From Abditibacterium sp. (GTDB lineage: Bacteria; Armatimonadota; Abditibacteriia; Abditibacteriales; Abditibacteriaceae), in the NCBI GenBank assembly GCA_965199495.1, contig CBDASK010000003.1, positions 4,608,001 to 4,672,000 of the forward strand: a stretch of 64,000 nucleotides of DNA, written 5' to 3'. How positions within the stretch are numbered: position 1 is the first letter of the stretch; every line of letters starts with the position of its first letter. This document shows, one piece after another, positions 45,001 through 48,000 of this stretch. A program made the position numbers.

Positions 45001-48000
45001 AGTCGGCGAAGCGCTCTTGCATGTCCTTCAGTTCGGCGTTGAGTTCGCGCATTTGGTCGCGCAAACTTTCCATTTCTGGGGTGGTGTGTTTGGTGTTATT
45101 CATGTTGATGTTCTCGCAAGTCGCGCCTCTTGTCGCTCTGGCGCACGTTACGGCTGTCAAAACTTTCAATTGGCGGGGCGATGTTCTCCGGGGAACAACT
45201 CGCCCTGCCCTATTTTTAGCGTTTAAAATACGCCGGAATAGCAATAGAGTCTGCCGCCTTCGGGCACGATGGCGGCTTTGCGGCGCACCAAACGCAGTTG
45301 GTGCAAGCGGGCGATGCGGTTGTTGCACGCCGTCACCGAATCGAGTTGTAGCGCCTCGACGACATCGCGCACGGTGGCTTGCCCTTGGTTCATCACGGCG
45401 CCCAGAGTCTCGACTAAATGTTCGGGCAGTTTGCCGATGACGCGCCATTTCACGGTGGATTGACCGCCCTGTTTGAGTTGCTCCTCGCGCGCTAAGGTGA
45501 GTTCGAGTTGCGGCAACTCCGATAACGGAACCGTGATCGCCGCCGCGTCGCGCTGCGATAGCGCCACTTCGACGTTTTCCAATAAAGCGATGGAAACCGG
45601 GTCGTCTTTCACGATGAGCACCAGATAGCGGTCGGGATACTCTTTGCCGCTCATGCGCGAAAAAATCGTGCCCAGAGCTTCGTCGGCAAACGAGTAATCC
45701 ATCATCTCGACGCCATCGAAATCAATCGCCAACACGCCGCCGGGCGGCAACGCCCGCAACGCCTCGTCAATGGATTCCTGAACCTCGCGACCCTTGGGAC
45801 GCATCGCCAGAAACGGCCCAAATTCGCCCAGTGATTTTTTGTGCATCTTTGCCATCGTTTTAATTCCTCGCTCTCTACTATAGAGCCATTTCAACGCGCT
45901 CGCGCTCCCACTTATTTCACTCTCGTCAATGAAACGACCTCTATTCATTATAGAGCGAATGAGAAACGGCGTCAAGAGAAATTTTAGGGTTATGGCTAAA
46001 ATTTTCGGTCGGGCGGCACCGCGTTTGCTTTTCGAGATTTTTCTATGGCCCGACTCGAAGGTAAAACCCCCAACGTAGGCGCGATTGTAATCAGCGCGAT
46101 AATCTTCGCACTGGTCGCCGGTGGCTTGTTCTTCGCCTTCCGTCCAGTGCCCGAACCGACCGATGCGGGCATCACCAATTCGGTCGCGCCGGACGCGGAG
46201 CAAAATAGCGCGTCCTCTTCCGATTCGGCCAACGCGACCAACAGCGAGAACACCTTATCCACCATTTTGACTCCGCTTCCAACGGCCACCGAAATGCCAA
46301 CCTCCGATTCTAATTCGACAGTTAATTCGGTAGCAAATGCCACAGCCAACACAGCAGCCACAGCCAACTCAGCGCCAGCGTCTAACGCCATGCCAGAGAC
46401 GACCAATGCCACGCCGACAGGTTTGGTGACTCCGCCCAACCCGCGTTAAGTCGGTGAGCAAATTGCAATAGACAAAACCACCGTTTTTCGATTCGGTTCT
46501 CATTTCAGGATAATCCCATGCGCAAAGCTAAAAATTTAATTGGCCTTCAGGCCATCTCTCAAGACGAAGGCAAAGACCTTGGCAAAGTTCACGATTTACT
46601 TTTCACTTCCGATTCCCGCCAACTGCTCGGTTTGCTCGTCAGCGACCGCGACTTGTTCGGCTTCAAGGATGCCACCGCGATTCCGTGGTCGCAGGTTCGC
46701 GAAATTGGCACGCACGCCGTCATGGTGCCAACCCAAAGCTCGTTGATGAAAGTCCATTCCGAAGATACCATCGCCGAGGCTTACGATAACGAACTGACTT
46801 TAACTTCCAAGCAACTCACGACCGACAAAGGCGAAACGTTGGGCAAAATTTCCGATTTGTATTTGGATGATAACGGCGCTGTCGTCGGCTACGAAGTTTC
46901 GGGCGGACTTTTCTCCGACGCTTACGATGGCAGACGCTATTTGGACGCGCCATCTGATATTGTCGTCGGCAAAAACGTGATCTTGATGCCGCACCAAATT
47001 GTGGACGATTTAGATCGTCAGGCGCAGCAGCAACCCGGAGGTATTAAAGGCGCTTTCAGTTCGGCGGGCGAAACGCTGAGCGACAAATACGATTCGGCCA
47101 AAGAAACCGTCGCTGACACCTACGACAACATCGCGACGGCTTCGGTGGATAAACAGCGCGCCTACGTTATCGGCAAAACGGCGGGCACTGACGTAATCAT
47201 CCCTGCTGATAAAGCGACGATGACCGCGCCCGCCGCTCTGGCCGAAAGTCGCGTCGAGAGCGGCCAGAATCCCAACGCGCCAGCGGTGGGCGAGCTGGAA
47301 TTGGGCGATTTCGGTAACCGCGACTTGAATGCGGGCGGCATTGACATCGTGCCGGTGCGCGACAATTCGGAAGCGATTGTGCCCGTCGCCGATAGCAGCC
47401 ACGCCGACGCCATTGTGCCATCGAACCAAACGGCGCAAGCGTCCGAAACCATCACCGAACTGCAAAAAGCCACGCCTGCGATGGCAACAGACCTGAGTTC
47501 GAGCGGCGAAGTCGTGGACGGCGAAGTTTTGGTGCGCAAAGGCGAAACTATCACGGCGCAACACGCTGACCGTGCGATTAACGCGGGGATTTTGGCCAAA
47601 CTCGTTGCTTCGGCGACTGCCGGTCACGCGGCGGGCAGCGACGCCAACGCTCAAGCGCAGGGCGCGTTGGATACGGCGCAGAGCAAAACCGAAGGCGCGC
47701 TGAGCAACGCGCAACAAAGCGCCGAAGATGCGGCGATTGGCAAGCCATCGGCGTTCGAGATTGATGCGCCCGACGGTTCGGTTATTGTGGCGCCCGGCCA
47801 AATCGTCACGCGCGAGATTTTGGCGCGCGCCGATCAGCACGGCAAGAAAGCTCAGGTCATTTCGGCGGCGGGCGCAGGCGCGGTTTCGCAAAGCGCGCAG
47901 CACGCCTACGGCGAAGCCAAGGATGTGGCTGCTGACGTTTGGGACACGGTGAAAGAGAAAACCAAACAGCTCATCGGTTATACCAAAGAGAAGAAAGATG

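What a model noticed while it worked through the whole genome (the two positions that open the first line are those of the whole stretch)
45223..45948. A new DNA-damage operator (TTCAYT-N6-ARTGAA) on recA and repair genes in a family without a core LexA
recA (site at 2480271) and other repair genes carry an 18-bp palindrome just behind the -10 box. The unannotated gene g04166, a STAS-like (DUF4325) plus winged-helix protein, is single-copy in the whole family and carries the best copy of the same palindrome in its own promoter, so it is the candidate repressor of an SOS-like regulon that replaces LexA.
Evidence so far: Palindrome core upstream of recA in 24 of 24 family genomes and 0 of 4 outgroup genomes. 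In this genome also before recQ, recG, sbcD, SRAP, imuB, a Sak4-like AAA_24 gene and conserved phage-derived g02976. g04166 homolog in 27 of 27 family genomes and G027, absent in G028-G030; operator upstream of it in 26 of 27 family genomes. Pfam weak hits DUF4325 and MarR_2. LexA matches in only 12 of 27, 5 over cut-off, none in complete G011 and G019; here only an island copy. DUF4325 papers: 3 listings, none on DNA damage by title/abstract.
(Added by a program. Inside this text positions count along the whole contig: contig position 4,608,001 is position 1 of the stretch shown here. "Call 12" and the like, gene names such as g00115 and contig names such as C1 are that model's own, and its searches are not shown. 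The text may have been shortened before it was handed on; [...] marks where a part breaks off. The agent that wrote the report below was given it as the finding of a first reader that could run no searches.)

Follow-up and report, generated by a model that had tools for sequence, protein, structure and literature searches.

The report
Kinase-switched repressor replaces LexA
In one family of soil bacteria that lost the usual SOS repressor LexA, a kinase and repressor pair known only as a local switch for anti-phage genes appears to have become the main switch for recA and other DNA-repair genes.

Summary
The operator (45916-45933) and the gene (true CDS 45223-45855, minus strand, 210 aa) are real. 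The protein is a homolog of CapS (PMC13373217): a STAS + winged-helix repressor that the kinase CapK phosphorylates and releases when it senses single-stranded DNA. Its phospho-acceptor serine (Ser55) is intact. A CapK-like kinase lies 1.24 Mb away, is present in 27 of 27 family genomes, and co-occurs with CapS in 28 of 31 class genomes, both being missing from the other 3. The predicted complex scores 0.86 against 0.00 for controls. The best evidence that CapS reads this palindrome: CapS genes on islands in six LexA-bearing relatives carry it at 11 of 12 textbook CapS sites, against 2 hits in 78,182 other positions. A canonical LexA is in 156 of 184 other phylum genomes and 0 of 27 family genomes. 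Conserved targets: recA, capS, ruvB, SRAP, a Sak4-like gene, an annealase-like gene and a Zn-ribbon gene; gyrB, ssb and recQ are weaker; uvrA, uvrC and recN have no site. Binding and induction are untested. Verdict: a new variant, a core and split CapK-CapS acting as a global LexA substitute.

The parts
45223..45855 (-). capS-like gene (g04166), 210 aa: STAS domain about residues 1-125 with acceptor Ser55 in MDYSF; winged helix about 140-210. Its partner kinase is outside the window (G000:C3:3409871-3410785, +).
   Evidence: Translation. Model pLDDT 92. Profile hits to CapS structures 9Z72 and 9Z71, E 1.3e-6 and 2.1e-5. hhalign to published E. roggenkampii CapS: probability 90.8, E 1.2e-6, Ser54 aligned to Ser55.
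45916..45933 (.). 18-bp operator palindrome, TTCA-N10-TGAA geometry, over the predicted 5' leader of capS (autorepression)
   Evidence: Kept in 27 of 27 family genomes with at most one mismatch and in G234.
45947..45975 (-). sigma70-type promoter of capS (TTGACG-17-TATAAT)
   Evidence: 11 of 12 consensus matches. A TTGAC...ATAAT-like layout is visible upstream of the site in the relatives' printed sequences.
45865..45869 (-). ribosome-binding site GAGGA, 9 bases before the ATG at 45855
   Evidence: Read directly from the sequence.
44825..45103 (-). unannotated 92-aa ORF directly behind capS (coiled-coil-like start, WxxWPY motif); probably co-transcribed, function unknown
   Evidence: tblastn hits at E<=1e-4 in 20 of 27 capS loci, plus one marginal. 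No Pfam family over cut-off.
44905..44922 (.). one-mismatch copy of the pattern inside the 92-aa ORF; most likely coding sequence, not an operator
   Evidence: A site scoring 10 or more lies here in 8 of 27 genomes, and in G000 it coincides with the codons for a conserved HS-containing stretch.

Best explanation
g04166 is a CapS-type repressor that, together with an unlinked CapK-type kinase, has become the core DNA-damage regulator of Abditibacteriaceae in place of LexA. At rest, a STAS-linked dimer binds TTCACT-N6-AGTGAA over or just behind the transcription start of recA, its own gene, ruvB, SRAP, a Sak4-like gene, an annealase-like gene, a Zn-ribbon gene and, more patchily, gyrBA, ssb, recQ and imuB-dnaE2. 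Single-stranded DNA made during repair activates the STAS-GHKL kinase, which phosphorylates Ser55; the dimer falls apart and the regulon is derepressed without RecA co-protease activity. Newly made CapS resets the circuit. Shown here: sites, positions, homology, residues, gene distributions. Predicted: kinase-repressor contact. Inferred from the published CapK/CapS work: DNA binding, ssDNA activation, dimer break-up, induction.
For: (1) Homology to tested proteins. The core kinase used as a query found the plasmid locus encoding WP_001567865.1, the CapS of PMC13373217, and the gene before it. Kinase hhalign probability 98, E 3e-13, with catalytic Asn218 aligned to Asn168. Ser55 motif in 27 of 27 genomes and 121 of 121 listed homologs. 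(2) Same operator geometry: published wide site TTAA-N10-TTAA against TTCA-N10-TGAA. (3) Cognate pairing. In six LexA-bearing phylum genomes, island capS genes carry this palindrome just upstream and just downstream: 11 of 12 slots score 8 or more, against 2 such hits in 78,182 other positions. Five of the six have capK adjacent. G234's core capS keeps both sites (21.7, 23.8). The G000 island paralog has different TTAA-type palindromes at the same two slots. (4) The kinase is in 27 of 27 family genomes and G234 and was not found in 3 other class genomes, the same pattern as CapS. It has no operator (0 of 26). (5) Complex score 0.86, best of 3 controls 0.00; the mark was reached by 116 of 157 solved complexes and 2 of 215 mismatched pairs; runs agree in at least 97% of contacts; partner pLDDT at least 87; Ser55 touches kinase residues 163-164 and 246-247. 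(6) LexA at E<=1e-50 in 156 of 184 genomes outside this order; best family hit 2.7e-39; no S24 domain found in G010, G011, G015, G019. (7) Targets not used in training: ruvB 14 of 21 at score 15 or more, gyrB 11 of 26 and ssb 10 of 26 at 12 or more, coding controls 0.
Against: No binding, phosphorylation or induction data. The complex pass may come from likeness to solved SpoIIAB-SpoIIAA-type pairs. The ssDNA-stacking Trp68 of CapK could not be mapped, because the N-terminal part does not align. Two DNA-contact residues of published CapS differ (Asn145 aligns to Thr175, Lys151 to Ala182). uvrA, uvrC, recN, mutS, polA and ligA have no site in G000. recQ reaches 12 in only 6 of 24 genomes. Most gyrB scores rest on one half-site next to an AT-rich -10 box. 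G234 has both genes but no site before recA. The six island loci come from only two families (four from one), so they are not independent. The tree does not place the core clade next to that island clade. Matrix scores for recA and capS in relatives are circular. Other phylum families (f11, f34, f19) also lack canonical LexA and show no core CapS.
Confidence: 0.8

Rival explanations
1. CapS represses this regulon and the kinase is its partner, but the inducing signal is not single-stranded DNA. It could be desiccation, redox or energy state, or the kinase only sets a basal level.
For: The kinase lacks the N-terminal HTH and Trp68 could not be mapped. Excision-repair genes are outside the regulon.
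Against: The HTH was dispensable in CapK and is absent in VapK. Targets are dominated by ssDNA-handling genes (recA, ssb, SRAP, Sak4-like, annealase-like). Lys237 in the predicted ssDNA groove aligns with Arg187.
Confidence: 0.1
2. An unidentified conserved factor binds the palindrome at repair genes, and g04166 is just one of its targets.
For: No direct binding shown. Two published DNA-contact residues differ. I did not screen every conserved transcription factor of the family.
Against: The same palindrome flanks island capS genes on both sides in genomes that keep LexA. WYL and IrrE-type candidates are not universal: PF13280 in 2 of 5 and PF06114 in 1 of 5 genomes tested.
Confidence: 0.06
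3. The palindrome is the box of the family's divergent LexA-like proteins.
For: LexA-like hits in 14 of 27 genomes. Sites lie near lexA-imuB-dnaE2 cassettes and before Sak4-lexA operons.
Against: The recA site is intact in G010, G011, G015 and G019, where neither TIGR00498 nor PF00717 found anything. G011 and G019 are assemblies of 2 and 1 contigs.
Confidence: 0.02
4. The sites are promoter features or chance matches conserved through kinship.
For: The plain pattern is not enriched in G000. gyrB sites overlap the -10 box.
Against: Palindromic, with a variable spacer and a fixed position after -10 across six genera. Absent before capK and in coding controls. Absent before recA in 5 outgroup genomes, best score 7.8.
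Confidence: 0.02

Closest known systems
CapK + CapS (Chambers et al., EMBO J 2026, PMC13373217; PDB 9Z71-9Z73)
   Same: STAS + winged-helix repressor with the conserved serine and wing Gly-Gly; STAS-GHKL kinase with the catalytic Asn; 18-bp palindrome with 4-bp outer half-sites 10 bp apart; operator in the repressor's own promoter; kinase gene not under the operator.
   Different: All 443 published capK are immediately followed by capS, and the pair regulates an adjacent, mostly immune operon. Here the genes are unlinked (at least 109 kb apart in the 7 genomes where both lie on one contig) and present in every family genome. The kinase has no HTH, the half-site is TTCA(CT), and the sites lie before scattered repair genes including recA.
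IrrE (PprI) / DdrO and the RDRM regulon of Deinococcus (passages of PMC12828697 and PMC13228613)
   Same: SOS-independent, lineage-wide, two-protein switch with an autoregulated dimeric repressor on a palindrome; ssDNA-stimulated; targets include recA and gyrB; has an island counterpart (CapP/CapH).
   Different: IrrE cleaves an XRE repressor, whereas here a kinase phosphorylates a STAS repressor. No homology; PF06114 was not found in G000. uvr genes are not targets here.
LexA/RecA SOS system
   Same: Autoregulated dimeric repressor on palindromes over the promoters of recA, ssb, ruvB and imuB-dnaE2 (target list recalled).
   Different: No peptidase S24 domain, so no self-cleavage; RecA is a target but not needed as sensor (inferred); uvrA and recN have no site.
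SpoIIAB/SpoIIAA and RsbW/RsbV partner switches
   Same: A GHKL kinase phosphorylates the conserved STAS serine; the STAS half of the model matches a stressosome chain (Z 9.3, rmsd 3.0, 113 residues).
   Different: The STAS domain is fused to a DNA-binding domain; no sigma factor or phosphatase is linked.
WYL regulators DriD / PafBC (global) and CapW/BrxR (local)
   Same: Same theme of an ssDNA sensor used both at islands and genome-wide (DriD seen in a search listing; PafBC recalled).
   Different: One-component WYL sensing, no phosphorylation; WYL found in only 2 of 5 genomes tested.

Membership tests
CapS | N-terminal STAS plus C-terminal winged helix, homologous to the tested CapS | tested here: met
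   (hhalign probability 90.8, 156 columns).
CapS | Conserved phospho-acceptor serine (Ser54) | tested here: met
   Aligns to Ser55; motif in 27 of 27 genomes and 121 of 121 homologs.
CapS | DNA-contact residues Asn145, Lys151, Gly169-Gly170 | tested here: inconclusive
   Gly200-Gly201 kept; Asn145 and Lys151 align to Thr175 and Ala182, which may reflect the other half-site.
CapS | Palindrome in its own promoter | tested here: met
   27 of 27.
CapS | Dimer that binds DNA and is released by phosphorylation | not testable with these tools
   Needs biochemistry; no homodimer prediction was run.
CapK | STAS + GHKL kinase with catalytic Asn218 | tested here: met
   Asn168, Glu164, His172, Asp202, Gly204, Gly206 invariant.
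CapK | N-terminal HTH domain | tested here: not met
   304 aa against 368 aa, HTH stretch absent. The HTH was dispensable in the paper.
CapK | ssDNA-stacking aromatic residue (Trp68) and ssDNA activation | tested here: inconclusive
   The region does not align; conserved aromatics Tyr10, Trp22, Phe53, Phe94, Trp95 are candidates.
capKS locus | capK immediately followed by capS, upstream of an immune operon | tested here: not met
   Core genes unlinked; neighbours vary and no A1 hit lies beside the kinase in the four wide regions checked. Met by the G000 island paralog pair beside multiubiquitin, Metal_CEHH and JAB genes.
LexA | Peptidase S24 and LexA DNA-binding domains | tested here: not met
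   Pfam scan of the protein shows neither.
IrrE/DdrO | M78 peptidase plus XRE repressor | tested here: not met
   The protein is not XRE; PF06114 not found in G000, G011, G015, G019.

The most novel reading that the evidence does not exclude
A defence-island CapK-CapS switch was domesticated at the base of this order: the genes split, the operator spread to recA and recombination genes, and canonical LexA was lost. The result is a global bacterial DNA-damage response switched by serine phosphorylation and independent of RecA. G234 would be an intermediate (both island-type sites kept, ssb captured, recA not yet), and the leftover LexA-like genes have become subordinate targets.
Probability: 0.65. 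Interest if true: 0.85.

Novelty: new variant of a known kind. Interest (0 to 1): 0.76.

Why it matters
The LexA-independent global damage responses I compared use proteolysis (IrrE/DdrO) or WYL sensors, and each has a local counterpart at immune operons. CapK/CapS was described only as a local switch. This would be its genome-wide counterpart: a phosphorylation-controlled SOS substitute in a whole bacterial family. It gives a traceable case of a core stress regulon being rewired from LexA to a defence-island regulator. It is testable in E. coli with two small genes and an 18-bp site, using the published assays. It also points to three uncharacterised genes as damage-inducible candidates.

Tried and rejected
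Plain-pattern counting in G000: no enrichment. Foldseek of the regulator model against the PDB copy gave only generic winged-helix hits and no CapS entry among the rows shown. The first kinase query (island paralog) gave weak hits, so the core kinase was re-searched with its own sequence and alignment. No solved structure resembles the kinase by sequence (best E 0.15). The pattern scan for further relatives in genome contigs returned only 23 close relatives at 56-98% identity. The 44905 match as a downstream operator: rejected as probably coding. Repair genes were found with short recalled motifs; several motifs (recR, uvsE, sbcC, dnaN) were unspecific and were ignored, and several genes (uvrB, uvrD, mfd, priA) were not found that way, so they are untested. 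Atlas searches for the two unknown targets named no family. The annealase reading of g02976 rests on a low-confidence model (pLDDT 59.6) and middling Z values. The CapS tree was a quick tree on 88 rows with an unresolved backbone, so no donor is claimed. Earlier scan notes could not be consulted.

Full report
**Observation.** The window has one exact TTCAYT-N6-ARTGAA, at 45916-45933. It lies 13 bp behind the -10 box of a TTGACG-17-TATAAT promoter on the minus strand. The gene runs 45855-45223 (210 aa). The lineage is Abditibacteriaceae by database names and record titles. The gene is in 27 of 27 family genomes, with the site exact in 25 and one mismatch in 2. recA has it with one or two mismatches in 24 of 24 genomes with upstream DNA, 6 bp after -10 in 22 by my script. 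Five outgroup recA upstream regions score at most 7.8.

**Is it more than chance?** The plain pattern is not enriched in G000 (7 against 7), but it is in the other 26 genomes (338 against 97 overall). A matrix from 36 distinct recA and regulator sites, leaving out G000, G006 and G012, finds 13 sites of score 16 or more on the main contig, 10 intergenic, against 2.75 and 0.8 for permuted matrices (maximum 9 and 5). Nine of the ten precede the regulator, recA, SRAP, AAA_24, ruvB, gyrB, imuB, g02976 or a Zn-ribbon gene; one precedes a glycosyl hydrolase.

**The protein is a CapS.** The alignment profile hits 9Z72 and 9Z71, the CapS structures of PMC13373217. Of that paper I read the abstract, the introduction, the results through ssDNA activation (that section not to its end), the VapKSC section, the discussion and the bioinformatics methods. 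I searched 12 of its 14 supplements for five taxon words; files 11 and 14 were not searched and may list relatives. In that paper CapS is a dimeric repressor, and CapK, activated by ssDNA, phosphorylates Ser54 and breaks the dimer. CapS binds one site before its own gene and one behind it; the wide site is TTAA-N10-TTAA. All 443 capK are followed by capS. The main text has no 'LexA', 'SOS' or 'Abditi'. Direct comparison with the tested CapS gives probability 90.8, with Ser54 on Ser55 and the wing Gly-Gly kept; Asn145 and Lys151 are not kept. The Ser55 motif is in 27 of 27 genomes and 121 of 121 listed homologs.

**The partner.** G000 has an island paralog behind a STAS-GHKL gene, beside multiubiquitin, Metal_CEHH and JAB genes. 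Searching with that kinase revealed a second one at C3:3409871-3410785. This core kinase is in 27 of 27 family genomes and G234 and was not found in G181, G255 or G280. In G013 it is split over two contigs. Core CapS has the same distribution; elsewhere among 373 phylum genomes only 15 give weak hits. The genes are unlinked, at least 109 kb apart in the 7 genomes where they share a contig. The kinase aligns with the protein encoded before the tested CapS (probability 98, E 3e-13; Asn218 on Asn168). It lacks the HTH, and Trp68 cannot be mapped. It has no operator (0 of 26). The predicted complex scores 0.86 against 0.00 for the best of 3 controls; that mark was reached by 116 of 157 solved complexes and 2 of 215 mismatched pairs. 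The runs agree in at least 97% of contacts, partner pLDDT is at least 87, and Ser55 faces kinase residues 163-164 and 246-247. Likeness to solved anti-sigma pairs may explain the pass.

**Regulator, not target.** I fetched loci for 14 of the 15 weakly hit phylum genomes and scored 10 of them, plus the two family island loci and G234. The other four (G366, G372, G375 fetched; G387 and G365 not in this fetch) had partial or fused hits and were left out. Six loci (G202, G099, G236, G300, G106, G239) carry this palindrome just before and just behind capS: 11 of 12 slots score 8 or more, against 2 hits in 78,182 other positions. Five have capK adjacent. Downstream lie a CBASS-type cyclase (G202), MoxR-vWA genes (G099, G300, G239), a SAM synthetase (G106) and unnamed genes (G236). 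Five of the six show a canonical LexA; G300 was not in that sample. G310, G335, G194 and the G015 island have related TCAC-N8-GTG palindromes below the threshold, G207 has none, and the G000 island has TTAA-N11-TTAA at both slots. G234's core capS keeps both sites. The six come from two families and are not independent, and the quick tree does not join them to the core clade.

**LexA.** Outside this order, 156 of 184 genomes of 90% completeness or more have LexA at E<=1e-50 (counted from the table). The family's best is 2.7e-39; 14 of 27 have any hit and 5 pass cut-off; G234's best is 3.3e-41. No S24 domain was found in G010, G011, G015 or G019. In a quick tree of 19 rows, eight phylum LexAs form a group apart from the family's proteins (support 99). 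The family's proteins sit in lexA-imuB cassettes (6 genomes) or behind the Sak4-like gene. In G020, G023 and G024 that operon has the CapS operator in front (17.0, 17.5, 22.5). Families f11, f19 and f34 also lack canonical LexA without core CapS, so LexA loss has other routes in this phylum.

**Regulon.** Among exact matches in 10 relatives (2 G024 matches had no locus), the downstream gene was recA in 10, capS 9, the Zn-ribbon gene 8, SRAP 5 (6 with G024), g02976 5, ssb 3, AAA_24 3. Ortholog scans: ruvB 14 of 21 at 15 or more (6 of 27 dropped because the start lay outside the locus); gyrB 11 of 26, ssb 10 of 26 and recQ 6 of 24 at 12 or more; coding controls 0. gyrB mostly has one half-site beside TATAAT. 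In G000, recG scores 14.7, a metallo-beta-lactamase gene 15.6, sbcD 8.2, recQ 7.8. uvrA, uvrC, recN, mutS, polA and ligA, identified by recalled motifs, have no site. G234 has sites at ssb and at an XRE-S24 repressor but not at recA, which follows a 2'-5' RNA ligase gene there. The C-terminal domain of g02976 resembles Red-beta (Z 7.6, rmsd 1.6, 54 residues) and Sak (Z 6.2), on a low-confidence model: a lead only.

**Mechanism.** Most likely the CapS dimer blocks initiation at these promoters, ssDNA activates the unlinked kinase, phospho-Ser55 breaks the dimer, and autoregulated resynthesis resets the system. Sites, homology and distributions are shown; the complex is predicted; binding, signal and induction are inferred from the paper. 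Confidence 0.8.

**Novelty.** It works like CapK/CapS but fails two membership features, gene adjacency and the kinase HTH. In role it resembles Deinococcus IrrE/DdrO (passages of PMC12828697 and PMC13228613). Ten library searches showed no report of a chromosomal CapKS repair regulon or of this family's damage response: DUF4325 (3 papers); Abditibacteri+LexA (1); CapK+CapS+STAS+DNA damage (the paper and its preprint); LexA-independent+kinase+anti-sigma factor antagonist+DNA damage+recA (0); Abditibacteri+recA (20); CapK+CapS+SOS (1); IrrE/DdrO/RDRM/CapP/CapH (11); Armatimonad+SOS response+LexA+regulon (0); A. utsteinense+DNA repair (3); STAS+winged helix+GHKL+recA promoter (0). Apart from the three papers named, I saw only listings, and the library lacks most subscription journals. 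Verdict: new variant of a known kind, interest 0.76.

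Noticed in passing
G000:C3:3409871-3410785 (L116:1144-2058, +): Core CapK-like kinase, unlinked to capS, present in 27 of 27 family genomes and G234.
   Followed up: yes
G000:C3:512347-516135 (L136): Canonical adjacent capK-capS island pair before multiubiquitin, Metal_CEHH and JAB (BilC-like) genes, with its own TTAA-N11-TTAA palindromes on both sides of capS. 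A natural test of cross-talk with the core pair.
   Followed up: partly
window 44825-45103 (-): Unannotated 92-aa ORF behind capS, conserved in 20 of 27 loci (WxxWPY motif); could be a modulator or a small division inhibitor (speculation).
   Followed up: partly
G000:C3 about 1651680-1652371 (L040): Family-wide gene with a long basic low-complexity N-terminus and a C-terminal CxxC...CxxC/CxC ribbon; it has the top-scoring operator in G000 and an exact site in 8 of 10 relatives; no Pfam or PHROG family.
   Followed up: partly
G000:C3:3284183-3285160 (L038): g02976 (phrog_10048): the model's C-terminal domain resembles Red-beta and Sak C-terminal domains, so possibly a domesticated single-strand annealing protein.
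   Followed up: partly
L468:2188-4736, L469:6340-8917, L470:6158-8791: Operator, then Sak4-like AAA_24 gene, then divergent lexA on one strand in G023, G024 and G020: LexA-like genes apparently placed under CapS.
   Followed up: partly
G000:C3:2480297-2480313 and recA promoters of genus g1: A lone TTCA(C/T/G)TGAA half-site between -35 and -10 of recA in most g1 genomes, about 28 bp before the main operator; may allow cooperative CapS binding.
   Followed up: no
L371-L397: ruvB open frames of about 870-910 aa in 6 of 27 genomes and gyrB frames above 1000 aa in several (G000 gyrB has an intein domain): patchy inteins in regulon genes.
   Followed up: no
L448-L461 (G202, G099, G300, G239, G194, G106): capS genes in other Armatimonadota sit before a CBASS-type cyclase with an HD-S24 gene, MoxR-vWA systems, Pycsar-like cyclases and a SAM synthetase; L458 and L460 hold single ORFs hit by both the kinase and CapS profiles (possible fusions).
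   Followed up: partly
G000:C3:4289332-4290085 (L121): S24-domain gene in a phage-like region with an operator-like site (13.4); G234 has an XRE-S24 repressor behind a 28.2 site, so prophage-like genes may be tied to the regulon.
   Followed up: no
window 29689-29706: Matrix hit of 16.3 inside a called ORF, 213 bp before a 122-aa ORF; not checked in relatives.
   Followed up: no
phylum families f11, f19, f34: Other Armatimonadota families that lack canonical LexA and show no core CapS; their damage regulator is unknown.
   Followed up: no
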